Source: an uncultured Zetaproteobacteria bacterium (GTDB lineage: Bacteria; Pseudomonadota; Zetaproteobacteria; Mariprofundales; Mariprofundaceae). Taken from it: a stretch of DNA of 64,000 nt. Made by a program: the position numbers and the translations under genes. The stretch lies in the NCBI GenBank assembly GCA_964458185.1, contig CAYWFG010000008.1, positions 2,843-66,842 of the forward strand. Direction: 5' to 3'. Below, piece by piece: positions 20,983-34,401 of this stretch. The notes below the pieces were generated by a model that had not been told where the DNA came from, ran no database searches, and was given only the letters and a program-made list of their open reading frames with translations. How positions within the stretch are numbered: position 1 is the first letter of the stretch; each line of letters opens with the position of its first letter.

Positions 20983-21336
20983 TCACCGAATCGGGCATGG
21001 CGGACAACAACAATCAAACGCTTCTTTAGTGCGTATACGGTACAATGTATCGACAGGGAAAACAGCCACCAAACCATCGCCTGATTGCCCCGTGTAAGCC
21101 GTCTCCATAATACATTGGGCAATGCTATCGGTTTCAGATGCATCGCAAAAAATTTCAATTTGCGCATGGTTGCACATCATGTCTTCTCGATAATAATCGT
21201 GGTATTCACCATAACCACGCACCTGTGTGACACTGATGCCAGAGACATTGATGTCACGCAATGCCGCTTCAACTTTTTTTAACACCAAACTGCTGATCAC
21301 AGCGGTAATACGTTTATAATTCACATGGTCATTCAT
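20983..21336 (-). CDS. PII (GlnB)-superfamily protein of the heavy-metal-efflux-linked type, with a Cys-rich C-terminal tail
   Basis: KRITAVISSLVLKKVEAALRDINVSGISVTQVRGYGE...GDGLVAVFPVDTLYRIRT has PII topology. The T-loop is short and non-canonical. Tail is FDCCCPPCPIR. GGGAG Shine-Dalgarno before ATG 21336. Confidence 0.7.
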   Translation of the reverse strand: MNDHVNYKRITAVISSLVLKKVEAALRDINVSGISVTQVRGYGEYHDYYREDMMCNHAQIEIFCDASETDSIAQCIMETAYTGQSGDGLVAVFPVDTLYRIRTKEAFDCCCPPCPIR

Positions 21337-21403
21337 GATTAAAACTCCCTCTTTCATCAAATGTGCAAGCCATGAGTCACCATAGCTTGCACAAATTCAC
21401 CCT

Positions 21404-21907
21404 TTATTTATTATCAGGGTATTTCACACCGATAAAATGTTTGCCACCATCTTCGGTTTTAAACAACACCATGATCTTGTGTTGCCCTGGGTGGTCAAGC
21501 TCATAGCCTGCCATATACCAATCGCCCATTTTCATCATCATCTTGGATTCTGATTTGTCGTTGGGGTGGGTAACTTTAGAGTTCACCGCTTGTAAGCCAA
21601 CAACAGCACCATCTTTTTCAACTTTAACCATCAAGTGGAACGAACCACCGTGTGCCATACCTTCAGGGGCTTTCATGACATGAAAGCTTACTGTGTAACC
21701 ATCGACATCAGCCTTTTCCAGATACGTCCCTTTTTTCATGCCACCATCATGGCTCATCTCGCCCTTCATGTGACCGTCATGCATGTTGCATGGGTTGTGG
21801 GCATGCCCTTCGCCATGGGCATGATCGCCTGTTGCCCACGCGCTTGGCATGGCAAGGCTGGCGGCAAACAATGCCGCTGCTGTTAATAACATCCGTGTTT
21901 TTTTCAT
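21404..21907 (-). CDS. periplasmic His/Met-rich putative Cu/Ag-binding protein
   Basis: Signal peptide ending SAWA. Mature N-terminus TGDHAHGEGHAHNPCNMHDGHMKGEMSHDGGM. Beta-rich body carries an MMMKM patch. AAGGAG Shine-Dalgarno. Confidence 0.55.
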   Translation of the reverse strand: MKKTRMLLTAAALFAASLAMPSAWATGDHAHGEGHAHNPCNMHDGHMKGEMSHDGGMKKGTYLEKADVDGYTVSFHVMKAPEGMAHGGSFHLMVKVEKDGAVVGLQAVNSKVTHPNDKSESKMMMKMGDWYMAGYELDHPGQHKIMVLFKTEDGGKHFIGVKYPDNK

Positions 21908-21916
21908 GTAAACTCC

Positions 21917-22064
21917 TTAGTGTTCATGTTTTAAAATATAAGGCTTTGAATCCTGATGGGTTTCAGGATCGCCTGTGTGTTCCCAGCCTTTACTGTCGTG
22001 AAGGCCAGTGCAACCCATTAACAACGCCGAGAGAAAAACTACCAATATAATCGTTTTATCCATT
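21917..22064 (-). pseudogene. small (48-aa if repaired) lipoprotein gene interrupted by a 1-nt frameshift in a T-run
   Basis: AAGGAG lies 7 nt before ATG 22064. Frame 1 gives MDKTIILVVFLSALFNGLHWPSRQ*. Skipping one T at 22020-22022 gives MDKTIILVVFLSALLMGCTGLHDSKGWEHTGDPETHQDSKPYILKHEH*, which ends exactly at the next gene's Shine-Dalgarno. The out-of-frame part aligns with the intact mini-lipoprotein at 23259-23405. Confidence 0.5.
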
Positions 22065-22086
22065 TCTCACTCCTTGTTTTATGCTC

Positions 22087-22695
22087 TTATTTCACCGCAC
22101 CAAACGGCAAAACCCGTGCGAAAGGTCGATGCCCAGCGCGCATGTGCATCAATGCCATAAACACATGCCCAATCACATACAGCCATAATAATTTAGATAA
22201 CAATGAATGGCTGCTAAGCAATAGCTCCATGCCTTGTGAGATATGCTCATGGCTATGCCCACTTGGTTCACTGGTGAACCAAATAATGGTTCCTGTAATC
22301 GCCATACCTGCCATCACCAATAACCCCAGCATTTCAATAATCATGGATAAGGCATTATTGGGTTGAATAAATACAGACTTGCCGAGCAATGCAGCAGGCA
22401 GCTTGCCAAGCACTACTTTTGCATCGTGCCAATGTTGTAGCGACAAAAGCACTGCCATTTGTCGTTTGTTTTGCTCACCACGCATAACAATTGCCCACAG
22501 CACATTCGCCAATACAATGACCGCAACAATTAAGCCATCCAGTTGATGCAAACTCATCAAAAGATTGCCAAAGGGTGTGCCATGATCGTCAGGGTGTGAC
22601 ATCAATAAACTGCTTGATAGTTGAAACAGCACGCCAACAATCAAGCCTGCATGCAGCCAACGGGTGGTGACATGATAACCTTGCATAGTCATCAA
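22087..22695 (-). CDS. cytochrome b561-family membrane protein
   Basis: Four TM helices with conserved His positions (TRWLHAGL..., HQLDG..., HVFMALMH). The ATG overlaps the DUF411 stop (ATGA). Confidence 0.6.
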   Translation of the reverse strand: MMTMQGYHVTTRWLHAGLIVGVLFQLSSSLLMSHPDDHGTPFGNLLMSLHQLDGLIVAVIVLANVLWAIVMRGEQNKRQMAVLLSLQHWHDAKVVLGKLPAALLGKSVFIQPNNALSMIIEMLGLLVMAGMAITGTIIWFTSEPSGHSHEHISQGMELLLSSHSLLSKLLWLYVIGHVFMALMHMRAGHRPFARVLPFGAVK

Positions 22696-23180
22696 TAGTG
22701 CGCGAAGACTTCTGTTTTTCCGCTGCCGTTAAACGACAATACATCATAGCCTTCGGTGGGTAAGCCTTCTTTTTGCATGCCTGGTGATTTCATCGGCATG
22801 CCAGGGGCAGTAAGCCCCACAATATCAGGACGTTCTTTTAATAAACGTGCCACGTCTTTGGCTGGGACATGACCTTCTATAATATAACCGCCAATCAATG
22901 CCGTATGGCATGATTCCAATGATTTAGGTACGCCGTATTGTTTTTTGATGGCATTCATATTGTCACGTTTGTGTTCGGTGACGGTAAAGCCTGCTTGACG
23001 CATATGGCTTGCCCAATCACCGCAACAGCCACAGGTCGGGGATTTGTACATATCAATGGTTTGACCATTTGATTGTGCCACCGTTGTTGTTTTTTCTTCG
23101 GCTATTGCGGTATTCACCGCATAGGCTGTAAATAACATTGCCATCATAGCAAATAAGCCAGTTTTTTGATAAAGTTTCAT
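22692..23180 (-). CDS. copG: DUF411 / CopG-family periplasmic copper-binding protein
   Basis: SPTCGCCGDWASHM Cys cluster and GYIIEGHVPA...APGMPMKSPGM. Signal peptide from MKLYQKTG (ATG 23180, AAGGAA Shine-Dalgarno). Confidence 0.8.
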   Translation of the reverse strand: MKLYQKTGLFAMMAMLFTAYAVNTAIAEEKTTTVAQSNGQTIDMYKSPTCGCCGDWASHMRQAGFTVTEHKRDNMNAIKKQYGVPKSLESCHTALIGGYIIEGHVPAKDVARLLKERPDIVGLTAPGMPMKSPGMQKEGLPTEGYDVLSFNGSGKTEVFAHY

Positions 23181-23206
23181 GGTGTTCCTTTTGGTTTTTA
23201 TCTGTG

Positions 23207-23240
23207 CTTTTGCTCCCACACAAGCGCATGGAAGCAAAAG
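23207..23240 (-). other. intercistronic stem-loop (11-bp stem) between the mini-lipoprotein gene and copG
   Basis: On the mRNA strand, CTTTTGCTTCC pairs with GGGAGCAAAAG around a 12-nt loop. No U-tract follows. Confidence 0.5.
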
Positions 23241-23258
23241 TAAGGGATTCAATGGTCG

Positions 23259-23405
23259 TTAGCGAATAATATCAAATGAGCGGTCATGTGCATTTTTACC
23301 TGTATGCTTCATCGTTGTGCCATCAGCATTATCGTGTGTATTGGCACAAGCACCCAAACTGAGGGTAAACATCAGCATCATCGCCATCATTATATATTTT
23401 TTCAT
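23259..23405 (-). CDS. unannotated 48-aa lipoprotein (absent from the ORF track)
   Basis: MKKYIMMAMMLMFTLSLGACANTHDNADGTTMKHTGKNAHDRSFDIIR. Lipobox is LGAC. AAGGAG lies 8 nt upstream, inside the end of cusA2. The ATG overlaps the cusA2 stop (ATGA). Confidence 0.65.
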   Translation of the reverse strand: MKKYIMMAMMLMFTLSLGACANTHDNADGTTMKHTGKNAHDRSFDIIR

Positions 23406-26400
23406 ACGTCACTCTCCTTTACCATCGATTTTTCTTGCCATTGCAGCAATAAACCATACACAGCAGGCAATACCACAAGGCAAAGAATGGTAGTTGTTAC
23501 CATACCACCAATCATGGGCGCTGCAATGCGTTGCATCACACTGGAACCTGTGCCATCGCCCCACATAATCGGTAACAAACCTGCAATCACTGCCGTGGCA
23601 GTCATGGCAATGGGGCGCACCCGTTGCGCTGTGCCTTGGAGAACAGCGGCATACATTTCTTTTGGCTCTAATGGGCGTTGCAATACTTTACGCTTTTCAT
23701 CCACGGTTTGTGCAATGAACGTTAATACCAACACGCCAATTTCTGCGGCGACACCTGCCAGCGCGATAAAACCTACACCGACGGCAACACTTAAATTATA
23801 ATCCAGCAGATAAATCAACCAAATACCGCCGACCATGGCAAACGGCACAGAAACCATCACCACCAAGGGTTCGGTTAAGCGTTGAAAGTTAAAGTACAAT
23901 AGCAAGAAAATAAGCAACAACACCAATGGTGCAACAATTTGCATCCTTGCCTTGGCACGCTGCATGTATTCGTATTGCCCTGACCATATCACATTATAAC
24001 CTGCTGGAATTTTCACTTTTTCGGCTACAATTTGTTGTGCCTTAGTCACATAACCGCCAATATCGGAAGTTTTGATGTCCACATAAATCCATGTATCCAG
24101 CAACGAATCTTCACTTTTAATCACGGGTGGGCCACGGGTTAATGATAAATCTGCAACCAATGACAGAGGAATTTGCTCACCGTGGGGCGTGGGAATCAAT
24201 ACCCGTTTGAGTGCCTCAGGTGAATCACGCACTTCACGCGCATAACGCAGGTTCACAGGGTAGCGTTCCAACCCTTCCACGGTTTTGGTGATGTTCATGC
24301 CACCAATGGCTGATTGAATGACATCTTGCACGTCACCCACGGTTAAACCATAGCGCGAAGCTTCTTTGCGGTTGATTTTAATATCGTAATAATACCCACC
24401 CACCGCACGATCCCCCATCGCAGTTTGGGTTTCAGGTAGCATTTTTAACACGCCTTCAATCTCTTTGCCCAGACGTTGCAACTCTTCAAGGTTATCACCC
24501 ACGATCTTGATGCCTACAGGGGTTTTGATGCCTGTAGAAAGCATGTCGATCCGTGTTTTTATCGGGTATGTCCACGCATTGGCAATACCGGGGAAGTTGA
24601 TGGCTTGATCCATTTCCTTCATCAATTCCTTGCTGGTTTTTTCAGGATTTGGCCATGCTTCATGCGGTTTTAGATGAATGGTGGTTTCCATCATCGATAA
24701 CGATGCAGGGTCAGTCGCGGACTCTGCTCGCCCTACTTTACCAAATACCGTTTCCACTTCAGGAAACCGTTTGAGTATTTGATCGGTACGCTGCAAAATC
24801 TCTTTTGCCTTGGTAATAGAAATACCAGGGAATGCCGTCGGCATATACAAAATATCGCCTTCATCCAGTGGCGGCATGAACTCGCTGCCCAGCTTGCTTA
24901 ACGGGTACGCACCACTGACCAGCAGCACCACGGCAATCATCATGGTCATCCATTTAAAACGCATCGCCACCGTTAAAATGGGGGTGTGCAACCATTGCAA
25001 AAAACGATTGATCGGGTTTTTATGCTCAGGCATGATTTTTCCGCGAATAAAATAGCCCATCAACAAAGGAACCAAGGTAATCGCCAAAATCGCCGCTGCT
25101 GCCATCGAATAGGTTGCGGTAAACGCCAATGGTTTAAACAAACGCCCTTCTTGTGCTTCCAGCGCAAAAATCGCCAAATAAGACACCGTGATAATCAACA
25201 AAGAGAAAAACAACGCAGGGGCAACTTCTTTGGAGGCCGTGCCAATCGCTGCCCAATGTTCTTTGTTGTTGAGTGCACCGCCTTTTTGTTGCGTTCGCTG
25301 CTCCAGATGCTTGTGGGCATTTTCGATTAACACAATCGCGCCATCAACCATTGCCCCGAGCGTAATTGCGATACCACCCAACGACATAATGTTCGCGGCA
25401 AGCCCTTGGGTTTGCATCAAAATAAAGGCAATCAACACCCCCAAAGGCAAGGTGATAATCGCCACCAAGGCAGAGCGGGCATGCATGAGAAACAACAAGC
25501 AAACCAGCCCAATAACAATAAATTCTTCAATCAGTTTTTCTTTTAAATTGTCCACAGCGCGTTCAATTAAGCCGCTGCGGTCATAAACAGGAATAATCTC
25601 TACGCCTTCGGGAAGCCCTTTGCGTAATTCATCGAGTTTTTCTTTCACCGCATTGATGGTGGCTAAAGCATTTTCACCAAAGCGCATAATCACCACGCCG
25701 CCAGCGACTTCACCTTCGCCATTTAGCTCAACCAATCCACGGCGTAATTCAGGGCCTAAATGCACATGGGCTATATCACGAATACGAATCGGCGTACCCG
25801 TAGTGTTTGAACCAACAGGAATATCATTGATGTCTTCAATGCTTTGTATATAGCCTAATCCACGCACCATGTATTCGGTTTCAGACATTTCGAGTAAGCG
25901 TCCACCAACATCGTTGTTGGAGCGTTTGATCGCATATTTGACGGCAGATAATGGAATATTGTATGCCAGCAAAGCATCAGGATCGACTTCCACTTGGTAC
26001 TGTTTAACAAAACCACCAATGGAGGCGACTTCAGATACGCCATTAACGGTTTGCAAGCGGTAGCGTAGATACCAGTCTTGAATGGAGCGCAGTTGGGATA
26101 AATCATGTTTGCCTGTTTTATCAATCAAAGCATATTCATAGACCCAACCGACACCCGTGGCATCAGGGCCTAATGTAGGGGTTACGCCTTCGGGTAAAAA
26201 CTTGGAAGCATAATTAAGGAATTCTAACACACGGCTACGCGCCCAATACATATCGGTGCCATCTTCAAAAATGATGTAAACGAACGAAAAGCCAAAAAAT
26301 GAATAACCACGCACTGTTTTTGTTTTGGGTACGGCAAGCATGGCAGTGGTTAAAGGGTAGGTGACTTGGTCTTCGATCACTTGTGGGGCTTGACCGGGGA

Positions 26401-26557
26401 ATTCAGTGAAAACGATAACTTGGACATCCGATAAATCAGGGATGGCATCTAGGGGAATGGTTTTGACTGCCCATAAACCACCTAGGAATAATAGCATGGT
26501 TGCCATTAATACTAAAAATGGTTTTTTTAATGAGATGTCTACGATATTTTGGATCAT
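23402..26557 (-). CDS. cusA: CusA-type (monovalent Cu/Ag) heavy-metal-efflux RND permease, copy 2
   Basis: 1051 aa. TM4 motif LGAMVDGAIVLIEN (A-x5-D-x6-E, Cu/Ag type). Met triad contexts conserved (ILYMPT, SLSMMETT, RIDMLSTG). Confidence 0.9.
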   Translation of the reverse strand: MIQNIVDISLKKPFLVLMATMLLFLGGLWAVKTIPLDAIPDLSDVQVIVFTEFPGQAPQVIEDQVTYPLTTAMLAVPKTKTVRGYSFFGFSFVYIIFEDGTDMYWARSRVLEFLNYASKFLPEGVTPTLGPDATGVGWVYEYALIDKTGKHDLSQLRSIQDWYLRYRLQTVNGVSEVASIGGFVKQYQVEVDPDALLAYNIPLSAVKYAIKRSNNDVGGRLLEMSETEYMVRGLGYIQSIEDINDIPVGSNTTGTPIRIRDIAHVHLGPELRRGLVELNGEGEVAGGVVIMRFGENALATINAVKEKLDELRKGLPEGVEIIPVYDRSGLIERAVDNLKEKLIEEFIVIGLVCLLFLMHARSALVAIITLPLGVLIAFILMQTQGLAANIMSLGGIAITLGAMVDGAIVLIENAHKHLEQRTQQKGGALNNKEHWAAIGTASKEVAPALFFSLLIITVSYLAIFALEAQEGRLFKPLAFTATYSMAAAAILAITLVPLLMGYFIRGKIMPEHKNPINRFLQWLHTPILTVAMRFKWMTMMIAVVLLVSGAYPLSKLGSEFMPPLDEGDILYMPTAFPGISITKAKEILQRTDQILKRFPEVETVFGKVGRAESATDPASLSMMETTIHLKPHEAWPNPEKTSKELMKEMDQAINFPGIANAWTYPIKTRIDMLSTGIKTPVGIKIVGDNLEELQRLGKEIEGVLKMLPETQTAMGDRAVGGYYYDIKINRKEASRYGLTVGDVQDVIQSAIGGMNITKTVEGLERYPVNLRYAREVRDSPEALKRVLIPTPHGEQIPLSLVADLSLTRGPPVIKSEDSLLDTWIYVDIKTSDIGGYVTKAQQIVAEKVKIPAGYNVIWSGQYEYMQRAKARMQIVAPLVLLLIFLLLYFNFQRLTEPLVVMVSVPFAMVGGIWLIYLLDYNLSVAVGVGFIALAGVAAEIGVLVLTFIAQTVDEKRKVLQRPLEPKEMYAAVLQGTAQRVRPIAMTATAVIAGLLPIMWGDGTGSSVMQRIAAPMIGGMVTTTILCLVVLPAVYGLLLQWQEKSMVKESDV

Positions 26558-26581
26558 TGTTTTGCTCCTTTTCGGCTATGC

Positions 26582-26603
26582 GGGCAGGCACATAGGCCTG
26601 CCC
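26582..26603. repeat. GC-rich hairpin element GGGCAGGC-ACATAG-GCCTGCCC between cusA1 and cusA2
   Basis: Read directly. A near-identical copy in opposite orientation lies at 29781-29802. Confidence 0.6.
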
Positions 26604-26611
26604 CTACGGGG

Positions 26612-29600
26612 TTATTTGTGGGCTGCGCGTTCTTTTGCCTGTAATACCATGCCATAAATGACGGGTAGGACTAGCAGGCTTAACAATGTTGCCGTGACCA
26701 TGCCACCAATCATCGGCGCTGCGATGCGTTGCATGACATCGGAGCCTGTGCCTCCGCCCCACATGATCGGCAGTAAACCTGCAATGACGGCGGTGGCTGT
26801 CATGGCAATAGGGCGTACTCGTTGGGTTGTACCACTGGCTACGGCTTCGATGATGTCTTGGGATGATAATGCACCGCGTGTTTCGGCACGGCGTTTGGCG
26901 ACCGATTGATCGATAAAGGTCATCACCAACACGCCGATTTCTGCCGATACCCCTGCTAGCGCAATAAAACCAACAGCGACTGCAACACTCATATTATAAC
27001 CCAAATACCAAACCAGCCAAAAGCCACCAATCAAGGCAAAGGGAATAGAGAGCATGACCACCACAGGTGAGGTGAAATTTCTAAAGTTAAAATACAGCAA
27101 CAAAAAGATCGTCAACAGAGTAATCGGAATCACCACGCGAAGCCGTTCTGCGGCACGTTCCATGTATTCAAACTGACCAGACCACACCAGCGAGTAACCC
27201 GCAGGAATTTTCACTGTTTCTGCCACCTTCTTTTTAGCTTCAGCGACATAACCACCAATATCGGAGGTTTTAATATCGACATAAATCCATGCGTTCGGCG
27301 TGGCATTTTCTGTTTTAACCGATGGGGGGCCACGGCGAAGCTTTAACGTTGTCACCAAAGATAAAGGGATTTGTGTGCCTGTCGGCGTAGGGATCAACAC
27401 CCGTTTAAGTGATTCCATATTATCGCGCAATTCACGCGGATAACGAATATTAATCGGGTAACGCTCTAAGCCTTCCACCGTTTCACTCACATTCATGCCA
27501 CCAATGGCAGATTGAATCACATCTTGCACATCTCCCACCGTTAAACCATAACGAGCAGCTTCTTCACGGTTGATGTCAAAATCAAGGTAATACCCCCCTG
27601 CGGCACGGTCAGCAAAGGCAGACAATGTATCGGGAAGTTGTTTAATAGCGCGTTCAATTTCGCCAGCAACATCTTCTAATACCTGCAAGTCAGGCCCTGA
27701 TAGTTTAATGCCAATCGGGGTTTTAATCCCCGTAGAGAGCATATCAATCCGTGTTTTAATTGGGTATGTCCACGCATTGGCTAGCCCTGGGAATTTGATC
27801 GCAGCATCCATTTCTGCCATCAATTCTTTGGTTGTTTTGCTAGGATCTGGCCATTCCGATTTGGGTTTTAAACGAATGGTAGTTTCTAGCATCGAGAGTG
27901 GTGCAGGGTCAGTGGCTGTTTCTGCACGCCCTACCTTACCAAAGGTATGATGCACTTCAGGGAAGGTTGCCAGAATTTTATCCGTTTGCTGCAATAACTG
28001 CTTTGCCTTGGTAATAGAAATACCAGGGTAAGTCGTTGGCATATAGAGTATATCACCTTCATCCAAGGGCGGCATGAACTCTGAGCCTGTATTCATCAAC
28101 GGGTAGGCTGTTGCACCCAGCAAGATAAGGGCAAAACTTAGCGTGATAAAACGCCAACGCAGCGCAAAACCAAGCAATGGCGCATGCACCGACTTTAAAC
28201 CTTTATTGAGCCAATTATGCTCTTCACTGGGGATTTTTCCGCGAATCATCAGTCCCATCAGCACAGGAACCAAGGTAACGGCAAGCAATGCTGCCGCAGC
28301 CATCGCATAGGTTTTGGTGAACGCCAGCGGTGCAAACAATCGCCCTTCTTGCGCTTGCAAAGTAAACACAGGCAAAAATGATACCGTAATAATCAGCAGC
28401 GAGAAAAATAGCGCAGGACCGACCTCTTTGGAGGCAGCAGTAATCGCCTGCCATCGTGCCGTGGTATTGTTGCTTTGTTCAGGGGTAAGATTTTCTAGGT
28501 GCTTATGGGCATTTTCGATCATCACAATTGCCCCATCAATCATCGCACCAATGGCAATGGCAATACCGCCAAGACTCATAATATTGGCAGATAAGCCCTG
28601 CCATTGCATAATCATAAAAGCGATCAAAATTCCAATTGGCAAACTGATAATTGCCACCAAGGCACTGCGCGCATGCATTAAAAAGATCAAGCAGATGATT
28701 GCCACTACAATCGACTCTTCAATCAATTTACCCTTGAGATTTTCCACGGCACGTTCAATCAAATCACCACGGTCATACACGGGTATAATTTCTACACCTT
28801 CGGGCAAGCCTTCTTTTAGATCATCCAGTTTTTCGCGTACACGTTCAATGGTGGCTAAGGCGTTTTCACCATAACGCATAATAATAATGCCACCGACCAC
28901 TTCGCCTTCACCATTTAGCTCAACCAGTCCGCGCCGCAATTCTGGCCCAATATGAATATTCGCCAGTTGTTTAAGAAAAATTGGCGTACCATTATCATCC
29001 ACACCAACAGGAATGACCTCTAAATCATGCAAGCTTTTGATATACCCCAACCCACGCACCATGTATTCGGTTTCGCTCATTTCCACCAAACGCCCACCAA
29101 CATCATTATTCGAGCGTTGAATGGCATGTTTAATTTTTGCAAGTGGAATATTGTAGGCAAGCATGGCATCAGGGTTTAACTCAATTTGGTATTGTTTAAC
29201 ATAGCCACCAATCGAAGCCACTTCAGATACGCCTTGCACGGTTTGCAAAGGGTAACGTAAATACCAGTCTTGAATCGAACGGAGTTGCGATAAGTCGTGT
29301 TTTCCTGTTTTATCTACCAAGGCGTATTCGTAAATCCAGCCAACACCTGTGGCATCAGGGCCTAACTTTGGCGAGACACTGGCTGGCAAACGGTCTGCTG
29401 CATAATTCAAGTATTCCAGCACCCGCGTCCGCGCCCAATACATATCGGTGCCATCTTTGAAAATAACATAGACCATCGAAAAACCAAAAAACGAATAGCC
29501 CCGTACCACCTTGGTATTCGGCACAGAAAGCATCGCCGTGGTCAACGGGTAGGTTACTTGATCTTCGACAACTTGCGGTGCTTGCCCTTCAAACTGGGTA

Positions 29601-29749
29601 AATACAATCACCTGCACATCAGAAAGATCAGGGATGGCATCCAGTGGCGTGGCTTTCATCGCCTGAAACCCTGCAAACGAAATCAACAATGCAGCAATCA
29701 ATACCAAAAATCGGTTCCGAATGGATACATCAATAAGCGAACGAATCAT
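26612..29749 (-). CDS. cusA: CusA-type (monovalent Cu/Ag) heavy-metal-efflux RND permease, copy 1
   Basis: 1045 aa. TM4 motif IGAMIDGAIVMIEN. Met triad contexts ILYMPT, PLSMLETT and RIDMLSTG. Confidence 0.9.
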   Translation of the reverse strand: MIRSLIDVSIRNRFLVLIAALLISFAGFQAMKATPLDAIPDLSDVQVIVFTQFEGQAPQVVEDQVTYPLTTAMLSVPNTKVVRGYSFFGFSMVYVIFKDGTDMYWARTRVLEYLNYAADRLPASVSPKLGPDATGVGWIYEYALVDKTGKHDLSQLRSIQDWYLRYPLQTVQGVSEVASIGGYVKQYQIELNPDAMLAYNIPLAKIKHAIQRSNNDVGGRLVEMSETEYMVRGLGYIKSLHDLEVIPVGVDDNGTPIFLKQLANIHIGPELRRGLVELNGEGEVVGGIIIMRYGENALATIERVREKLDDLKEGLPEGVEIIPVYDRGDLIERAVENLKGKLIEESIVVAIICLIFLMHARSALVAIISLPIGILIAFMIMQWQGLSANIMSLGGIAIAIGAMIDGAIVMIENAHKHLENLTPEQSNNTTARWQAITAASKEVGPALFFSLLIITVSFLPVFTLQAQEGRLFAPLAFTKTYAMAAAALLAVTLVPVLMGLMIRGKIPSEEHNWLNKGLKSVHAPLLGFALRWRFITLSFALILLGATAYPLMNTGSEFMPPLDEGDILYMPTTYPGISITKAKQLLQQTDKILATFPEVHHTFGKVGRAETATDPAPLSMLETTIRLKPKSEWPDPSKTTKELMAEMDAAIKFPGLANAWTYPIKTRIDMLSTGIKTPIGIKLSGPDLQVLEDVAGEIERAIKQLPDTLSAFADRAAGGYYLDFDINREEAARYGLTVGDVQDVIQSAIGGMNVSETVEGLERYPINIRYPRELRDNMESLKRVLIPTPTGTQIPLSLVTTLKLRRGPPSVKTENATPNAWIYVDIKTSDIGGYVAEAKKKVAETVKIPAGYSLVWSGQFEYMERAAERLRVVIPITLLTIFLLLYFNFRNFTSPVVVMLSIPFALIGGFWLVWYLGYNMSVAVAVGFIALAGVSAEIGVLVMTFIDQSVAKRRAETRGALSSQDIIEAVASGTTQRVRPIAMTATAVIAGLLPIMWGGGTGSDVMQRIAAPMIGGMVTATLLSLLVLPVIYGMVLQAKERAAHK

Positions 29750-29828: not shown

Positions 29829-31307
29829 TTATTTAGGCATTTCCATATCGCCCATATTCATGTCATCCATCTTGTCCATATCCATATCGCCCATATCCAT
29901 ACCTTTAGGTGCTACAACCTTAGGTTCTTGTTTCTTCATCATTTTGGCAGTGGCTTCTTTAAGTTTTGACTCAGAGTCAATCAAGAATTGGCTAGAGGTC
30001 ACGACAATCTCACCCTCTTTCAAACCATTAACAATTTGCACCATGCCATCAGCTTCCACGCCCAAAATAACCTTGCGTGGATCAAACTTACCTGCACCAC
30101 GCTGCACAAATACTTGCTCTTGTTCACCCGTGCGCACAATCGCTTCTGATGGAATAACAATGGCATCAACCTGCTTACCCGCTCTCACATTCACATTGGC
30201 AAACATTTCAGGCTTTAGCACCAAATCACTGTTATCAAATTCCAAACGAATTTTAACGGTGCGGGTTTTTGCTTCTAAGTAGGGGTAAATGTAACTTACT
30301 TTACCGATAAAAGTTCTCCCCGGTACGCCAGCGATTTTCATTTCAGCATCATCGCCTTCACGCACCCAAGGTAGATCATCTTCGTACAGATCTACAATCA
30401 CCCAAATATGGGTAAGATCAGCAATCATGTACAATTCAGTGGAAGGTGTGATCCGTTCCCCTTCACGTACGCCAATGTTCATGATTGTGCCATTAAAAGG
30501 TGAGTGGATATGCAGTGCTTTAATGACTTTGCGTGTGCGTTTTAATTTTCTAATTTGATGTTTGGGTACATCCAATAAATCAAGTCGTGAATACGCCGAT
30601 TTCAATAAATTTTTAGCTCCTTCACGCACATCAGGGAAAGGACTGTTCTTTAAAATATCAACGTTGTTTAATGCCAAAATATATTCTTCTTGTGTAGCGA
30701 CCAACTGCGGCGAATAAATCGCCATCAACATCGTATCTTTAGCAACGGTGTCACCCGTCTTGTTGATAAATAATTTTTCTACCCAGCCATCATACTTAGG
30801 GTGCAAACGTGCTACACGCTCTTCATCAAAAGTGACGCGCCCAATGGTGCGAATATCACGCGATAGTGTGATGCGTTTTGCCGTAGTGGTACGAACACCG
30901 ATATTTTGTGCCAGCGTACCATCAATTTTTACCGTGCCAGCCAACGATTTTTCATCACCACCACCATCGGCATACACGGGAATATAATCCATGCCCATTT
31001 CATCTTGCGCAGGAACAGGTGAAGTAATATTGGGATTCATCGGGTTGCGGTAAAACAATACTTTTTTTTCTTTGGGGGAATTCTCTTCGGCATAGACAGG
31101 CACATAATCCATGCCCATAGAATCTTTGGCGGGTACTTTGGATGTAGCCGTAGGATCCATGGCATTACGGTAAAAAAGAATTTTTCGTTCGTTACTAGCC
31201 GCTGGGGTTGAAGGGGATTGATTGGCGTAATACTGATTGCCAAAGTAGCCAGCCCCTGCACCGATAAGCAAGGTGACGATGGCAGTGCCGATAATGGATT
31301 TGTTCAT
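29829..31307 (-). CDS. cusB: CusB-type RND periplasmic adaptor with two N-terminal heavy-metal-binding repeats and a Met/Asp-rich tail
   Basis: Repeats ILFYRNAMDPTATSKVPAKDSMGMDYVPVYAEE and VLFYRNPMNPNITSPVPAQDEMGMDYIPVYADG. MFP barrel/hairpin body. Tail is GMDMGDMDMDKMDDMNMGDMEMPK. Confidence 0.85.
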   Translation of the reverse strand: MNKSIIGTAIVTLLIGAGAGYFGNQYYANQSPSTPAASNERKILFYRNAMDPTATSKVPAKDSMGMDYVPVYAEENSPKEKKVLFYRNPMNPNITSPVPAQDEMGMDYIPVYADGGGDEKSLAGTVKIDGTLAQNIGVRTTTAKRITLSRDIRTIGRVTFDEERVARLHPKYDGWVEKLFINKTGDTVAKDTMLMAIYSPQLVATQEEYILALNNVDILKNSPFPDVREGAKNLLKSAYSRLDLLDVPKHQIRKLKRTRKVIKALHIHSPFNGTIMNIGVREGERITPSTELYMIADLTHIWVIVDLYEDDLPWVREGDDAEMKIAGVPGRTFIGKVSYIYPYLEAKTRTVKIRLEFDNSDLVLKPEMFANVNVRAGKQVDAIVIPSEAIVRTGEQEQVFVQRGAGKFDPRKVILGVEADGMVQIVNGLKEGEIVVTSSQFLIDSESKLKEATAKMMKKQEPKVVAPKGMDMGDMDMDKMDDMNMGDMEMPK

Positions 31308-32602
31308 GGTTGATCCTTAATGGTTTGAATGGGTGTGCCTACGGCAGCTTCAAGGCGTGCCAAGGCTTGATTGGCTGTGCTGATCGCTTTCCAATACTGG
31401 GTTTCGTAGTTGTAACTGGTGATTTGACTGCGCACAAGGTTGAGGAAATCCACCTTGTTCACTTGGTAGCCTGCCAACATCGAAGCAACCGTTTGTGTGG
31501 CTTGGGGGATAATCCCCGTTTTAAACAACAGTGCTTGACGAGTCGCTGTTTGATAATCACTGACCGATTGGCTGATGTCTGTTTCCATGGTTAAGCGGCG
31601 ATCTTCTAGTGCAAAAGTCGCTCGTGCGGTGTCTGCCTCGCGTTGTGCTAATGCGCGGTCTTGTTTGGTATCGGTGAAAATAGGTAAATTCATGCTGAAC
31701 ATAATGCCCGTTAAATCGCTGCGACCTGCCCGCATACCATAATTTCCGCCAAGGGAAAAATCAGGGTAATAATCTTTTTTTGCTAATTCAACACGCGCTT
31801 TTGCTGCATCAATATGCTTGCGCTGCGCATCAAGCCATGGACGCGAAGCCAATGCGGTAGTGCGTAACAGTGATTCATCAGGAAGTGTATTTAATTGTTC
31901 AGAAATAGTTGCAGGCAAGGTGATTTGCGCATCTGCGCGGCGTTGCATCAAGGTGTTGAGTGCCGCCTGTTGATCGCGGCGAGTTCCTTTAAGAGAAATC
32001 TCACTATCTAACAACTTAGATAATTCAAGTTGTGCCAACAATACATCCGATTGTAAGCCTTGCCCTGTTTTGTATTTGCTGTCTGCAATACGAACAAATT
32101 GACGCAATAAACTTTGATTGCGTTGAACGATACGCAATGCTTGATCGACATAAACCAAGTTCCACCAATACATGTGGATATTCCGCTGCAACACCAAGCG
32201 AATTTCAGCGACATCCAACAATGCCGCCTGTGCTACAAAATCAGCACTTTTAGCGCGCAACGCCAACTTACCAGGGTACGGTAAGGCTTGAGTCAAACCT
32301 ACTTGAGTCTGGGTCATTGCTTCACGGCTTAAAGAAGGATTATTCAATGGAACATTCAGTATATTAAAATTAAACCGTGGATCGGGCAAGGTGGATACTT
32401 GCGCGGGGACTTCTGCCAATGCTTTGGCGCGTTCGCTTAAGCCTGTTAAAGCTGGATGCGTGGCAATGCTTTGCACGGCATCTTTTAATGTTAATGCTTT
32501 CGATGCATCTGCACTGTGTGCCGTCACCGTCACACCCCAAGCAAGCAACATACTCGCCAGCACTGCCCGCATGGGGGTCAGTGTATAAAGATAAGGCATC
32601 AT
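31304..32602 (-). CDS. cusC: TolC-family outer membrane factor (CusC-like)
   Basis: 432 aa with two OEP repeats. AGGAGG Shine-Dalgarno. Overlaps the cusB start by 4 nt. Confidence 0.8.
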   Translation of the reverse strand: MMPYLYTLTPMRAVLASMLLAWGVTVTAHSADASKALTLKDAVQSIATHPALTGLSERAKALAEVPAQVSTLPDPRFNFNILNVPLNNPSLSREAMTQTQVGLTQALPYPGKLALRAKSADFVAQAALLDVAEIRLVLQRNIHMYWWNLVYVDQALRIVQRNQSLLRQFVRIADSKYKTGQGLQSDVLLAQLELSKLLDSEISLKGTRRDQQAALNTLMQRRADAQITLPATISEQLNTLPDESLLRTTALASRPWLDAQRKHIDAAKARVELAKKDYYPDFSLGGNYGMRAGRSDLTGIMFSMNLPIFTDTKQDRALAQREADTARATFALEDRRLTMETDISQSVSDYQTATRQALLFKTGIIPQATQTVASMLAGYQVNKVDFLNLVRSQITSYNYETQYWKAISTANQALARLEAAVGTPIQTIKDQP

Positions 32603-32684
32603 ACCCTCCTATTGATAGAGGAATGAATAGTAAAAAGAAAATATGCCTAGAAAGTGTTCACAAGAACAAAAGACACAACGCTAT

Positions 32685-32713
32685 TTTATAATTCATTCCA
32701 GAAAACAACACAA
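32685..32713 (-). promoter_or_regulatory. candidate sigma70 promoter upstream of cusC (TTGTGT-17 nt-TATAAA)
   Basis: Read on the minus strand. The spacer contains one arm (GGAATGAAT) of a 9-bp inverted repeat whose other arm lies at 32620-32628. Confidence 0.3.
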
Positions 32714-32745
32714 CCTTACGTTATGGAATCATAAGAACGATAAAT

Positions 32746-33183
32746 TTAAATAAGTATGCGTTGGGTGGTGGTAAAAAGAAGAGAACTGCTACGCGGCGGC
32801 CCTGTAGGGGTGCGCGATATAAGCATGGAAAGCGTGAATACATGATAGTCTTCACGATCAAGCACAGAAAACATGCTAATATGATCCAGAGACAATAAAG
32901 CAAACACAGCAGAAGAAGCCTGCGTTGGTTCTTCACAATGGAAACAAGCGTGTGCCTGTGGTTGCTGTTGATGCAGGCCTATATCGGCATTGCAATGTTT
33001 TTCTACTTCGGTCAACAGCATGATAGAACCATCATCTGATGGCGTTGCAGGCATATCCGCAGCCATCAAACAAGCAGAAGATAGCAATAACTGTGCTGTA
33101 AAAAGCAAAGCCACGCCAGCCATAAGCCGCTGAAAACCACGATGGTCTGCAAAGTAAGAAAACATGGCGGCAATACTAGGCAT
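32746..33183 (-). CDS. hypothetical membrane-anchored/secreted Cys/His protein
   Basis: Hydrophobic N-segment LMAGVALLFTAQLLLSSACLMA followed by HCNADIGLHQQQPQAHACFHCEEP. Lies 3 nt (TTG start at 33195) or 15 nt (ATG start at 33183) downstream of the FtsX-like gene. No family recognised. Confidence 0.4.
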   Translation of the reverse strand: MPSIAAMFSYFADHRGFQRLMAGVALLFTAQLLLSSACLMAADMPATPSDDGSIMLLTEVEKHCNADIGLHQQQPQAHACFHCEEPTQASSAVFALLSLDHISMFSVLDREDYHVFTLSMLISRTPTGPPRSSSLLFTTTQRILI

Positions 33184-33198
33184 AGTGGGAAGCAAATG

Positions 33199-34401
33199 TC
33201 AAATAACATCAACAGGCTCTAGCCTAGCAGCACGCAGCGCAGGAACCACCGCCGCCAACAGCGTAGCGATAAAAACCAAGCCTACAGTATGCAATAAATG
33301 ATCAGTGTTGATTTCTGTGTAAATCATTGTATCGACATAAAAACGTTGAATGGTGTCCATCTGCCCAGACAAATCAATACCGACATGATGAAACCAACGC
33401 ACGCAGCTTAGCCCCAGTAATGTTCCGAGTGCCACCCCCGTGACACCAAGAATGATGGACTCAACCATGACCATGCCTGCCAAGGTATAACGAGGGCAAC
33501 CCAATGCCAACATGACACCAAACTCATGCACCCGCTCTAGCATACTCATCAACACAGTGTTCATCACCCCTGCAGCAACAATCAATAATACGACACCAAG
33601 AAATATATAATAAAAGACATTCTCTAACTCAACCCACTGTTGCATCATGGGGTACATATCGTACCAACGCATCACTTCGTATTGCTGTGGATTTAATGTG
33701 CCATGCAATTGTTGATAGACACCCTCAAGTTGATCGGCAGGTAACTGCAATAGAATACGCGAAATACGTTGACCCATCCCCAACCATTGTTGCATAAAAG
33801 CTAAGGGGACAATCGCTAATCCACGGTCAATGCCCATTTCACCACTGGAGATGATCCCCACCAAGGTGAACTTTTCGGCGGCTAAAGAACCAAAGCGATC
33901 TTCCGATAACAGTACCAGATCATCGCCGACTGTTATGCCAAGATTACGTGCTGTTGCCGCCCCCACCACACATGCTGTGGTATCATTGTCGTTTAAAAAA
34001 CGCCCACGGTCCACCTTTTGCGCCAAGGTTAAAAGCGTGAGGGAAGGCTCTACCCCCAACAACATCAAGCCTTCAGAAACATCTTCCCCCGCAGCCAATG
34101 CAAAGCCCTGTAATTGACGCGCATAATCATTAACCCCTGCTTGCTTAATCGCAGCATCAACGGTTGTAGCCTGCTGAATATAACGCGATAAACGCGGTGC
34201 GCGGAAATAGCCCTGTTGATGAATTTGTATGCTACCAACAATAGCGCGTTGCATATTGCGGGTCATATTGTTGTGCAGCCCATCGTTAAACCCCCACAAA
34301 AATAACAAAGAGGCAAGACCAATGGTAATCGCAGCCATGGTGATGACACTGCGGCGAGGGTTGCGAAAAATATTACGAAAAGCCATGGCAAACATCATCA
34401 C
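33199..34401 (-). CDS. FtsX-family ABC transporter permease (MacB/LolCE-like), with no adjacent ATPase
   Basis: 400 aa. TM1, a large periplasmic domain, then three C-terminal TM helices. N-terminus AFRNIFRNPRRSVITMAAI is typical of the family. Confidence 0.75.
   Translation of the reverse strand: MMMFAMAFRNIFRNPRRSVITMAAITIGLASLLFLWGFNDGLHNNMTRNMQRAIVGSIQIHQQGYFRAPRLSRYIQQATTVDAAIKQAGVNDYARQLQGFALAAGEDVSEGLMLLGVEPSLTLLTLAQKVDRGRFLNDNDTTACVVGAATARNLGITVGDDLVLLSEDRFGSLAAEKFTLVGIISSGEMGIDRGLAIVPLAFMQQWLGMGQRISRILLQLPADQLEGVYQQLHGTLNPQQYEVMRWYDMYPMMQQWVELENVFYYIFLGVVLLIVAAGVMNTVLMSMLERVHEFGVMLALGCPRYTLAGMVMVESIILGVTGVALGTLLGLSCVRWFHHVGIDLSGQMDTIQRFYVDTMIYTEINTDHLLHTVGLVFIATLLAAVVPALRAARLEPVDVI

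What the first reader, a model, noticed from the sequence alone, without database searches (positions are those of the whole stretch)
20983..34401. One-strand, roughly 12-gene Cu(I)/Ag(I) efflux supercluster with non-canonical accessory genes and no recognisable regulator
All genes from 34401 down to 20983 are on the minus strand with short or overlapping junctions. The junctions are 3 nt, 143 nt, a 4-nt overlap, 79 nt, 54 nt, ATGA, 78 nt, ATGA, 22 nt, 9 nt and about 67 nt. The order is FtsX-like permease, Cys/His protein, cusC, cusB, cusA1, cusA2, a 48-aa lipoprotein, DUF411/CopG, cytochrome b561, a frameshifted mini-lipoprotein, a His/Met-rich periplasmic protein and a PII-like protein. The canonical cusCFBA partners are missing: no cusF, no cusRS/copRS two-component system, no MerR/CueR and no copA. 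The cluster instead carries a putative redox pair, two mini-lipoproteins and a PII-type signal protein. I do not recognise this combination as a described system.
Basis: partly seen in the sequence, partly recalled or inferred. Interest (0 to 1): 0.78.

Follow-up and report, generated by a model that had tools for sequence, protein, structure and literature searches.

The report
Extended copper-efflux operon of Zetaproteobacteria
This is a real copper/silver export operon of the kind carried by marine iron-oxidising Zetaproteobacteria; most of its odd accessory genes are conserved partners, its "missing" regulator is probably the small Cys/His leader gene at its head, and its conserved pair of tandem pump genes has not been reported for metal pumps.

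Summary
The gene calls and junctions hold up. The organism is a Zetaproteobacterium.

- **Conservation.** In 80 related loci, 56 of 57 with enough upstream DNA have a CusA gene just upstream of the His/Met-rich gene. CopG/DUF411, the PII-like gene, cytochrome b561, the second mini-lipoprotein and the Cys/His gene recur.
- **Not part of the module.** The FtsX-like permease recurs in none of the 80 loci. It is an orphan piece of a permease-permease-ATPase system. The first mini-lipoprotein is not conserved either.
- **Second mini-lipoprotein.** It is intact, not frameshifted.
- **Cys/His gene.** It is a divergent DUF2946 protein of the CutF/CruR class of copper-sensing leader ORFs. It has a signal peptide, a C…CxHC motif and a near-invariant C-terminal PPRSSSLLxTTTQRIRI. 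It has its own promoter placed for a leaderless transcript. In most relatives an anti-Shine-Dalgarno sequence just after its stop pairs with the cusC ribosome-binding site. In this window that helix is weak.
- **His/Met protein.** Its predicted fold resembles the copper protein CrdA.
- **cusA2.** It belongs to an old paralogue clade that is always second in the pair. A 2024 survey found tandem RND genes only among drug pumps.

Verdict: a new variant of a known kind, of moderate interest.

The parts
33173..33202 (-). Sigma-70-type promoter of the module (TTGACA-18-TAGTAT). Its -10 element ends 7 nt before the leader ORF's ATG, which predicts a leaderless transcript.
   Evidence: Consensus scan hit, 10 of 12. 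The same TTGnnn-17-TAnnnT element, 6-7 nt before the ATG, occurs in 20 of 23 homologous loci, against 0.8% of random positions.
32746..33165 (-). CutF/CruR-like (divergent DUF2946) leader ORF, 139 aa. It has a signal-peptide-like N-terminus with a conserved Cys, an HC…CxHC motif, and a C-terminal PPRSSSLLFTTTQRILI-stop.
   Evidence: Family alignments. 10 of 24 family members hit PF11162. The C-terminal 24 alignment columns are 64% identical against 25% for the rest, and third codon positions are free. Literature.
32603..32745 (-). Structured 143-nt spacer between the leader ORF and cusC. In relatives an anti-SD at +3..+15 after the stop pairs with the cusC SD. Here the equivalent pairing is weak and a long extra hairpin is inserted.
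   Evidence: Fold z = -3.55. Family MFE structures and duplexes. Pair counts on register alignment A4. Footprint simulation shows an effect in relatives but none in the window.
31304..32602 (-). cusC-type outer-membrane factor
   Evidence: PF02321, E 2.4e-41.
29829..31307 (-). cusB-type adaptor with two tandem copies of the E. coli CusB N-terminal Met site and a C-terminal (M-D-M)n tail
   Evidence: NCBIfam CusB and PF16576. Alignment to E. coli CusB. Motif counts across relatives.
26612..29749 (-). cusA1, RND permease of the CusA type
   Evidence: 1274 bits against E. coli CusA. Met triad, D405 and E939 are kept.
23402..26557 (-). cusA2, a member of a separate paralogue clade that is always the second gene of a tandem pair. 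It is 70% identical to cusA1.
   Evidence: NJ tree of 74 CusA sequences. Residue table and identities.
23259..23405 (-). 48-aa putative lipoprotein, joined to cusA2 by an ATGA overlap. Not conserved in relatives.
   Evidence: Only marginal similarity (E 0.007) to a 48-aa lipoprotein in L006/L007.
22692..23180 (-). CopG (DUF411) periplasmic copper protein with a CxCC motif
   Evidence: PF04214, E 1.9e-26. PDB 6WIS, E 1e-33. Present in 43 of 80 loci.
22087..22695 (-). Membrane cytochrome b561 family protein
   Evidence: PF01292, E 2.5e-14. Same DUF411-cytochrome b-His/Met order in L009 and L010. Elsewhere it pairs with a shorter paralogue of the His/Met protein.
21917..22063 (-). Conserved 48-aa His-rich lipoprotein (C…HDxKGWEHxGD…EHxH). 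Intact.
   Evidence: Homologues directly upstream of the His/Met gene in about 11-14 loci.
21404..21907 (-). Periplasmic His/Met-rich beta-sandwich protein (remote YtkA-like) with a CrdA/P19-like predicted fold
   Evidence: 414 homologues. Invariant His/Met/Glu columns. AF2 core pLDDT above 90. Foldseek top hit is H. pylori CrdA, followed by FetP/FtrA. 56 of 57 loci have a cusA upstream.
20983..21336 (-). PII-like protein with a shortened T-loop (consistent with the PII-NG type). Its Cys-rich C-terminal tail is unique to this genome.
   Evidence: PF00543, E 2e-15. Alignment to PII structures shows T-loop gaps. Family alignment. Present in 31 of 80 loci. PII-NG literature.
33199..34401 (-). Orphan FtsX/MacB-type permease. 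Adjacent to the module but not part of it.
   Evidence: No homologue in 80 loci. Its relatives are always permease-permease-ATPase. No partner gene in the window. The junction is also seen in an independent assembly.

Best explanation
The region is the Zetaproteobacterial form of a Cus-type Cu(I)/Ag(I) RND efflux operon, fused to a periplasmic copper-handling set.

**Start of the operon.** Transcription most likely starts at its own promoter (33202-33173), at the ATG of a 139-aa exported Cys/His leader protein of the CutF/CruR (DUF2946) class.

**Inferred regulation, by analogy with CutF.** While this peptide is exported co-translationally, copper binding to its C…CxHC motif changes how long the ribosome stays on the invariant C-terminal PPRSSSLLxTTTQRIRI-stop sequence. 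A ribosome held there covers the first roughly 12-15 nt after the stop. In most relatives that stretch holds the anti-Shine-Dalgarno sequence that otherwise sequesters the cusC ribosome-binding site. Copper would thereby control translation of cusC and the genes behind it. That would make this gene, rather than a two-component or MerR protein, the local regulator.

**The pump.** It consists of CusC, one CusB and two paralogous CusA permeases. CusB carries a duplicated N-terminal Met site and a Met/Asp tail, and there is no CusF. The two CusA proteins either mix in one trimer or form two alternative pumps sharing CusB and CusC.

**Downstream genes (inferred roles).** These encode CopG, cytochrome b561, a His-rich mini-lipoprotein and a CrdA-like His/Met protein. 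They would bind periplasmic copper, keep it reduced and pass it to the pump. The PII-NG-type protein would modulate the system from the cytoplasm.

**Not part of it.** The FtsX-like gene is an unrelated orphan neighbour.

**Shown versus inferred.** Shown: gene identities, co-conservation, the promoter, leader-peptide conservation, the anti-SD:SD helix in relatives, and the paralogue clade. Inferred: stalling, copper sensing, the redox relay, the PII role and pump stoichiometry.
For: - **Gene identities:**
- **CusA residues:** Met triad and charged residues are kept in both CusA copies.
- **Co-conservation in 80 loci:** cusA lies upstream of the His/Met gene in 56 of 57 loci. DUF411 is in 43 of 80, PII in 31 of 80, cytochrome b in 16 of 80 and lipoprotein 2 in 11 of 80. 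The Cys/His ORF heads cusC in about 29 Zetaproteobacterial loci.
- **DUF2946 relation:** 10 of 24 family members hit the model, best E 1.7e-5.
- **Literature on CutF and CruR:** CutF-like ORFs are most often upstream of OEP/cusC genes, and CusD/SilD are members of the network.
- **Selection on the peptide tail:** identity at codon positions 1/2/3 is 0.73/0.78/0.41, and the tail is 64% identical against 25% for the rest of the protein.
- **Leaderless-type promoter:** 20 of 23 loci against a 0.8% background.
- **Anti-SD:SD helix:** it closes the spacer in about 24 of 30 MFE structures, with duplex energies of -15 to -21 kcal/mol. On the register alignment 73.7% of cells pair, against 39-56% when the partner is slid, and the flanking pairs show compensatory changes.
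- **Footprint simulation:** a ribosome footprint at the stop raises SD accessibility from a median of 0.11 to 0.38 (p = 3e-7).
- **Other CutF-like ORFs:** gammaproteobacterial versions of the operon carry other CutF-like ORFs ending …RPPIFR or …KPPRASHA.
- **CrdA-like fold:**
- **T2 paralogue clade:**
Against: - In this window and in its closest relative L005, the spacer is 143-146 nt. The canonical anti-SD:SD helix is weak here (-9.8 kcal/mol, z = -1.1), and the simulated ribosome footprint does not free the SD. The RNA part of the switch is therefore not demonstrated here.
- The window's own Cys/His protein gives no Pfam hit.
- Its PP dipeptide lies 16-17 residues from the C-terminus, outside the 'last 15 residues' filter used to define CutF-like proteins.
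- CutF's own proline motif did not stall on its own in a LepB reporter. CruR works in the opposite direction and through Rho. The direction and mode of regulation therefore cannot be inferred.
- K984 of the E. coli proton relay is Ile in the whole clade.
- No expression, metal-binding or transport data exist for any member.
Confidence: 0.68

Rival explanations
1. The Cys/His protein is a stable periplasmic or membrane-anchored copper chaperone, or a pump accessory that replaces CusF. It is not a regulatory leader peptide. Regulation is purely in trans, by a kinase/sigma-54 regulator or MerR protein encoded elsewhere.
For: - It is 139 aa long with conserved Cys/His residues and a signal peptide.
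- Relatives often have HK + sigma-54 RR and MerR-CopA nearby.
- In the window the SD-shielding helix is weak.
- The window protein has no Pfam hit.
Against: - The best-conserved part is the last 17 residues, right up to the stop codon, and not the metal motif region.
- An anti-SD lies within a ribosome footprint of the stop codon in most relatives, with compensatory changes.
- There is a DUF2946 relationship, and there are published cis-acting precedents.
Confidence: 0.2
2. CusA1 and CusA2 do not co-assemble. They form two separate homotrimeric pumps that share CusB and CusC, for example with different affinities or Cu versus Ag preference. Alternatively one is a redundant spare.
For: - Both copies keep every known functional residue.
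- Only 3 sites strictly separate the T2 clade from the rest, one of them P620S next to M623.
- Many relatives manage with a single cusA.
Against: - T2 copies form one clade that is always in second position after a first cusA and one cusB. This is the same layout as the heteromeric MdtBC/MuxBC pumps.
- The paralogues are 70% identical to each other but 86-87% identical to their orthologues, so both have been kept for a long time.

Neither observation decides the stoichiometry.
Confidence: 0.5
3. The downstream genes (CopG, cytochrome b561, lipoprotein, His/Met protein, PII) are not efflux accessories. They serve copper or iron acquisition and redox chemistry linked to the iron-oxidising lifestyle, and merely share an island with cusCBA.
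For: - The His/Met protein's fold also matches FetP/FtrA (P19) iron-uptake proteins.
- Cytochrome b561 often pairs with a second paralogue of the His/Met protein away from cusA.
- Gene order and content vary between genomes.
Against: - The His/Met gene follows a CusA gene on the same strand in 56 of 57 loci, and is directly adjacent in 23.
- This holds also in non-iron-oxidising Gammaproteobacteria such as Motiliproteus and Neptunomonas.
- The top fold match is CrdA, which is itself encoded with an RND copper efflux system.
- CopG is a known copper-resistance protein.
Confidence: 0.15

Closest known systems
E. coli CusCFBA Cu(I)/Ag(I) efflux system
   Same: - OEP, adaptor and RND permease in one operon.
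- CusA is 54-55% identical, with M573/M623/M672, D405, E939 and the charged channel residues conserved.
- CusB has the N-terminal three-Met site.
   Different: - No CusF and no adjacent CusRS.
- Two CusA paralogues in tandem.
- The CusB Met site is duplicated and there is a Met/Asp tail.
- K984 is Ile, and M271/M755 are L/N.
- There is a leader ORF and five extra downstream genes.
CutF (Rhodobacter capsulatus cutFOG) and CruR (Bordetella pertussis bp2923): DUF2946 copper-sensing leader ORFs. CusD/SilD of Cupriavidus are placed in the same network.
   Same: - Small exported protein, first in the operon.
- Cys metal motif and a conserved proline-containing C-terminus.
- A structured spacer that shields the next gene's SD in most relatives.
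- Sits upstream of an OEP gene, which is the commonest context reported for CutF-like proteins.
   Different: - The tail is longer and distinct (PPRSSSLLxTTTQRIRI-stop, with PP at -17/-16).
- A leaderless-type promoter.
- The family is small: 119 representatives among 1.84 billion proteins.
- Only sub-threshold DUF2946 hits.
- In this window the shielding helix is degenerate.
Helicobacter pylori CrdA with CrdB-CzcBA
   Same: A small periplasmic Met/His-rich beta-sandwich copper/silver protein encoded with an RND metal efflux system. It is the best structural match of the His/Met protein (TM 0.72 normalised to CrdA).
   Different: - No detectable sequence similarity.
- The gene lies downstream of the pump genes rather than at the head.
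- It has an extra variable His/Met-rich linker.
MdtABC / MuxABC-OpmB / SmeJK heteromeric RND pumps
   Same: One adaptor gene followed by two paralogous permease genes kept in a fixed order through an old duplication.
   Different: - Those are drug pumps of HAE-1 clade B with about 50% identity between partners. Here the partners are HME/CusA-type with 70% identity.
- Heteromer formation is untested here.
PII-NG-czcABC operon (for example Geobacter sulfurreducens GSU2134-2137)
   Same: A PII-domain protein encoded in a heavy-metal RND operon.
   Different: - Here it is the last gene rather than the first.
- The pump is Cus-type rather than Czc-type.
- Relatives carry two PII subtypes, one after cusA2 and one after the His/Met gene.

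Membership tests
CusCBA-type (HME-RND) Cu(I)/Ag(I) efflux system | RND permease with the CusA methionine triad M573/M623/M672 | tested here: met
   Conserved in cusA1, cusA2 and all 71 clade members.
CusCBA-type (HME-RND) Cu(I)/Ag(I) efflux system | Proton-relay residues D405, E939 and K984 | tested here: inconclusive
   D405 and E939 are conserved. K984 is Ile in every member of the clade.
CusCBA-type (HME-RND) Cu(I)/Ag(I) efflux system | CusB adaptor with an N-terminal three-Met Cu(I) site, and an OEP outer-membrane factor, in the same operon | tested here: met
   The Met site is present twice.
CusCBA-type (HME-RND) Cu(I)/Ag(I) efflux system | Periplasmic chaperone CusF | tested here: not met
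   No CusF-like ORF in the cluster. A CrdA-like protein may substitute for it.
CusCBA-type (HME-RND) Cu(I)/Ag(I) efflux system | Copper/silver export and resistance | not testable with these tools
   Needs MIC and transport assays.
CutF/CruR-like DUF2946 copper-sensing leader ORF | Under 150 aa, first gene, next gene on the same strand within 1000 nt, N-terminal signal peptide | tested here: met
   139 aa, with a 143-nt spacer to cusC. The hydrophobic N-terminus and AxA-type site were judged by inspection of the alignments; no signal-peptide predictor was available.
CutF/CruR-like DUF2946 copper-sensing leader ORF | Cys/His metal-binding motif | tested here: met
   C38, C64, C80, H82 and C83 are invariant or nearly invariant.
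CutF/CruR-like DUF2946 copper-sensing leader ORF | [quoted passage not shown] | tested here: not met
   PP is at positions -17/-16. It is followed by an invariant RSSSLLxTTTQRIRI tail.
CutF/CruR-like DUF2946 copper-sensing leader ORF | Match to Pfam DUF2946 (PF11162) | tested here: inconclusive
   The window protein has no hit. 10 of 24 family members hit, best E 1.7e-5.
CutF/CruR-like DUF2946 copper-sensing leader ORF | Stem-loop shielding the downstream SD, placed so that a ribosome at the ORF's end can open it | tested here: inconclusive
   Met in about 24 of 30 relatives. Weak in the window and unaffected by the simulated footprint.
CutF/CruR-like DUF2946 copper-sensing leader ORF | Acts only in cis, with copper-dependent ribosome stalling | not testable with these tools
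   Needs genetics, toeprinting or ribosome profiling.
CopG (DUF411) | DUF411 domain with a CxCC motif and the Met motif | tested here: met
   PF04214, E 1.9e-26. 6WIS, E 1e-33, with CGCC and PGMPxxSPGM aligned.
PII-NG | P-II domain protein encoded with heavy-metal RND genes | tested here: met
   PF00543, E 2e-15. Context in 31 of 80 loci. Literature.
PII-NG | Phylogenetic placement inside the PII-NG clade | not tested
   No reference PII-NG sequences were available. Only a shortened T-loop was seen.
CrdA / P19 (FetP, FtrA) periplasmic copper proteins | Sequence homology | tested here: not met
   A profile search of PDB sequences found nothing at E up to 10. There is no Pfam Iron_transport hit, only weak YtkA hits in 9 of 20 members.
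CrdA / P19 (FetP, FtrA) periplasmic copper proteins | Shared fold | tested here: met
   Foldseek gives CrdA at E 1.3e-4 with TM 0.72 (normalised to the target), and FetP/FtrA at E 4-7e-4. The model core has pLDDT above 90.
Heteromeric RND pumps (MdtBC type) | Two paralogous permease genes in tandem after one adaptor gene, from an old duplication | tested here: met
   (13 of 46 loci).
Heteromeric RND pumps (MdtBC type) | Membership of HAE-1 clade B | tested here: not met
   Both are CusA/HME type. A survey found tandem pairs only in clade B.
Heteromeric RND pumps (MdtBC type) | Physical heterotrimer | not testable with these tools
   Needs co-purification or cryo-EM.

The most novel reading that the evidence does not exclude
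Two linked novelties.

1. CusA1 and CusA2 co-assemble into the first heteromeric heavy-metal RND pump. This would be an independent origin of the MdtBC-type architecture inside the HME family.
2. The operon is switched by a new class of arrest peptide (PPRSSSLLxTTTQRIRI-stop). It would be translated from a leaderless mRNA and sense periplasmic copper during its own export.
Probability: 0.25. Interest if true: 0.75.

Novelty: new variant of a known kind. Interest (0 to 1): 0.55.

Why it matters
- **Origin of the 'supercluster'.** It is a lineage-wide module of marine iron-oxidising Zetaproteobacteria and some marine Gammaproteobacteria, not a one-off.
- **A candidate local regulator.** A copper-sensing leader peptide offers an answer to the missing-regulator puzzle. 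Family-wide RNA and peptide evidence makes this directly testable.
- **Tandem metal-pump genes.** The conserved CusA paralogue pair falls outside a 2024 survey's finding, in 920 reference genomes, that tandem RND permease genes occur only among drug pumps. If the pair co-assembles, it would open the question of what a mixed trimer does for a metal pump.
- **Uncharacterised proteins.** The cluster also defines a CrdA-like periplasmic protein family and a His-rich mini-lipoprotein, both tied to CusA and neither characterised.

Tried and rejected
- **Exact-sequence look-ups.** Two window proteins were not on record. The source contig was reached only indirectly.
- **Rfam.** It found only the tRNA.
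- **Terminator scan.** It gave no convincing internal terminator.
- **Sigma-54 promoter upstream of the leader ORF.** I looked for this because relatives carry a sigma-54 regulator. No consistent site was found.
- **Plasmid collection.** It holds no relative of the His/Met protein.
- **FtsX-like gene as part of the system.** Rejected.
- **Cys-rich C-terminal tail of the PII protein as a conserved metal site.** Rejected, because it is unique to this genome.
- **Duplication of the CusB Met site tracking the tandem cusA.** It does not.
- **Disulfide oxidoreductase (19414-20844) as a member.** Rejected, 1 of 80 loci.
- **Simple 'ribosome footprint frees the SD' model.** It works for relatives but not for this window or for L005.
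- **Clade-specific residues separating CusA2 from the rest.** Only three were found, so they say little about function.

Full report
**Observation.** Family searches confirm the labels: FtsX/MacB-type permease, an unassigned Cys/His ORF, an OEP, a CusB-type adaptor, two CusA/CzcA permeases, DUF411, cytochrome b561 and a P-II domain protein. The two 48-aa lipoproteins and the His/Met-rich protein have no Pfam family. A tRNA-Pro gene lies just upstream on the other strand. The flanks are housekeeping genes: argG on one side, pcm, an M23/LysM peptidase and ribosomal protein operons on the other. Homologues of the His/Met protein place the organism in the Zetaproteobacteria (Mariprofundaceae). A 100% identical protein is on record from a 73-kb contig.

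**Is it Cu/Ag?** CusA1 scores 1274 bits against E. coli CusA and 542 against the zinc pump ZneA. I aligned 74 CusA sequences from related loci with E. coli CusA. M573, M623, M672, D405, E939, R83, E567, D617, E625, R669 and K678 are invariant in both copies. K984 is Ile, and the M271/M755 pair is L/N, in the entire clade. The adaptor carries two tandem copies of the E. coli CusB N-terminal Met site and a C-terminal Met/Asp repeat. There is no CusF.

**Co-conservation.** I scanned one genome per species with a profile of the His/Met protein. This returned 80 loci, mostly Zetaproteobacterial MAGs and isolates, plus marine Gammaproteobacteria such as Chromatiales, Motiliproteus, Neptunomonas and Pontibacterium. 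I then searched all window proteins against these loci and clustered the ORFs. The recurring order is: Cys/His ORF, cusC, cusB, cusA (one or two copies), then a variable set of PII, DUF411, a thioredoxin-like lipoprotein, cytochrome b561, the mini-lipoprotein, the His/Met protein (often with a second paralogue), a YHS-domain protein and PII. This is frequently followed by a histidine kinase with a sigma-54 response regulator, and by MerR and CopA.

The counts are as follows (unless stated):
- A CusA gene ends within 2.6 kb upstream of the His/Met gene, on the same strand, in 56 of 57 loci with enough sequence.
- DUF411 occurs in 43 of 80 loci, PII in 31, cytochrome b561 in 16 and the second mini-lipoprotein in 11.
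- The FtsX-like gene occurs in none, the disulfide oxidoreductase in one, and the first mini-lipoprotein in none convincingly.
- None of the kinase, sigma-54 regulator, MerR or CopA families has a homologue anywhere in the 64-kb window.

**The FtsX-like gene.** Its closest relatives (58-63% identity, 19 metagenome loci) always sit in a permease-permease-ATPase unit with no cus genes nearby. The window has neither the second permease nor the ATPase. It is an orphan neighbour. The junction with the Cys/His gene is not an assembly artefact, because an independent assembly shows it too.

**The Cys/His gene.**
- *The protein.* Alignment of about 30 homologues shows a signal-peptide-like N-terminus with a conserved Cys, an HC…CxHC motif, and a nearly invariant C-terminus, PPRSSSLLxTTTQRIRI, running to the stop codon.
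- *Selection on the tail.* The tail is 64% identical across the family against 25% for the rest of the protein. Its third codon positions vary freely (0.41 identity, against 0.73 and 0.78 at positions 1 and 2). Selection therefore acts on the peptide, not on the RNA.
- *Family assignment.* Ten of 24 members give sub-threshold hits to DUF2946; the window protein itself gives none. The subfamily is small, with 119 representatives among 1.84 billion proteins.
- *Literature.* DUF2946 proteins were recently shown to be copper-sensing upstream ORFs. CruR of Bordetella controls Rho-dependent termination through a C-terminal RAPP arrest motif. CutF of Rhodobacter is exported co-translationally, stalls on a C-terminal proline motif when copper is bound, and thereby opens a stem-loop that shields the next gene's ribosome-binding site. 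The CutF study reports that CutF-like ORFs most often precede OEP (cusC/czcC/silC) genes, and it places Cupriavidus CusD and SilD in the same network.
- *Other forms.* Gammaproteobacterial versions of the present operon carry other small Cys/His ORFs ending …RPPIFR, …KPPRASHA or …FRPPRQL in the same position.

**RNA and promoter evidence.**
- *Promoter.* In 20 of 23 loci a TTGnnn-17-TAnnnT element ends exactly 6-7 nt before the leader ORF's ATG, and no Shine-Dalgarno sequence lies between them. Random positions show this pattern 0.8% of the time. This predicts a leaderless transcript. In the window the element is TTGACA-18-TAGTAT (33202-33173), which the consensus scan had already flagged. The operon therefore starts here and not at the FtsX-like gene.
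- *Anti-SD:SD helix.* Downstream, in about 24 of 30 loci, the minimum-energy fold pairs a CCUUCUGC-like sequence at +3 to +15 after the stop codon with the cusC GCAGGAGG ribosome-binding site 70-90 nt away, enclosing two hairpins.
- *Pair counts.* On a register alignment of the two arms, 73.7% of cells pair, against 39-56% when the partner is slid. The flanking pairs show compensatory A-U/G-C exchanges, and 1-6 of 500 shuffles reach the observed values. The caveat is that the register was taken from predicted duplexes.
- *Footprint simulation.* Forcing the first 12 nt after the stop to be unpaired, as a ribosome at the stop codon would, raises the unpaired probability of the ribosome-binding site from a median of 0.11 to 0.38. 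This is p = 3e-7 against free RNA and p = 1e-5 against a control footprint.
- *The window differs.* In this window and in its nearest relative L005 the spacer is longer (143-146 nt) and folds stably (z = -3.55). The equivalent helix is weak, and the simulation shows no release. The leader peptide is fully conserved here, but the RNA half of the switch is not demonstrated for this genome.

**Tandem CusA.**
- *Frequency.* Thirteen of 46 loci with enough sequence have two adjacent cusA genes.
- *Paralogue clade.* In a neighbour-joining tree all second copies form one clade, which includes the window's cusA2.
- *Age of the duplication.* The two window copies are 70% identical to each other but 86-87% identical to their counterparts in other species. 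The duplication is therefore old and both copies have been maintained.
- *Prior survey.* A 2024 survey of 6,205 RND permeases in 920 genomes found 203 tandem pairs, all in HAE-1 clade B (MdtBC, MuxBC, SmeJK) and none among metal pumps.
- *Assembly unresolved.* Whether the two CusA proteins mix in one trimer cannot be decided here. Both keep all known functional residues, and only three sites strictly separate the clades, one of which (P620S) lies next to M623.

**Other accessories.**
- *CopG.* The DUF411 protein matches the solved CopG structure at E 1e-33, with its CxCC motif.
- *His/Met protein.* It has a variable His/Met linker and a conserved domain with invariant His, Met and Glu residues. 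Its predicted core is confident. The best structural matches are H. pylori CrdA, a copper/silver protein encoded with an RND efflux system, and then the P19 proteins FetP and FtrA. Sequence searches find no solved relative and only weak YtkA-like hits.
- *PII protein.* It aligns to canonical PII structures with gaps in the T-loop. PII-NG proteins are known to cluster with czc-type pumps. Its Cys-rich tail is unique to this genome.
- *Cytochrome b561.* It is found in the same DUF411-cytochrome-His/Met order in two relatives. Elsewhere it pairs with a shorter paralogue of the His/Met protein. This hints at an electron-transfer partnership, which is an inference.

**Verdict.** This is a genuine, conserved, extended Cus-type operon, not an unrecognisable new system. 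Its parts are known kinds (CusCBA, CopG, PII-NG, CutF-like leader) or remote analogues of known kinds (CrdA-like protein). Three things are new:
- the particular assembly, which is widespread in Zetaproteobacteria;
- the distinctive leader-peptide tail with a leaderless-type promoter;
- the conserved tandem CusA paralogues, which I could not find described.

Noticed in passing
window 10695-12879 (-): A low-GC stretch (0.30-0.34, against about 0.45 elsewhere). It holds a C-5 cytosine DNA methyltransferase gene and an adjacent 369-aa ORF with no Pfam hit. This is probably a horizontally acquired restriction-modification pair.
   Followed up: partly
window 34491-34567 (+) and 33199-34401 (-): A tRNA-Pro(GGG) gene sits 89 nt from the start of the orphan FtsX/MacB-type permease gene. 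The permease lacks the second permease and the ATPase that accompany all its close relatives.
   Followed up: yes
window 23402-29749; loci L005-L084: Every CusA of this clade (71 sequences, whether single or tandem) has Ile in place of the E. coli proton-relay residue K984. Every one also has L/N in place of the M271/M755 pair.
   Followed up: partly
window 29829-31307; CusB genes of L001-L084: CusB proteins of this group carry one or two copies of the N-terminal three-Met site, and almost all end in (M-D-M)n repeats. The copy number does not track single versus tandem cusA.
   Followed up: yes
L006, L007, L008, L013, L024, L026, L036, L037, L051: A shorter paralogue of the His/Met protein followed by a cytochrome b561 gene recurs as a separate pair several kb from the cus genes. 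In L006 and L007 it is preceded by a 48-aa lipoprotein weakly similar to the window's first mini-lipoprotein.
   Followed up: partly
L001/L011, L006-L010, L026-L029, L033, L036, L046, L065, L081, L084: In relatives the module is followed by a histidine kinase, a sigma-54-dependent response regulator, a 462-aa protein with a CxxCH-like motif and a His-rich membrane protein. None of these is in the window.
   Followed up: partly
L058, L071, L074, L082, L083 upstream of cusC: Gammaproteobacterial versions of the operon begin with other small Cys/His ORFs ending …RPPIFR, …KPPRASHA or …FRPPRQL. These are classical CutF-like tails.
   Followed up: partly
window 19141-19164: A perfect 10-bp palindromic hairpin flanked by A and T runs, which looks like a bidirectional terminator. 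It lies between a Roadblock/LC7-like ORF (18759-19118, +) and the disulfide oxidoreductase gene (19414-20844, -).
   Followed up: no
window 20983-21000: The PII-like protein ends in a Cys-rich tail (CCCPPCPIR) that no homologue in 33 related sequences shares.
   Followed up: yes
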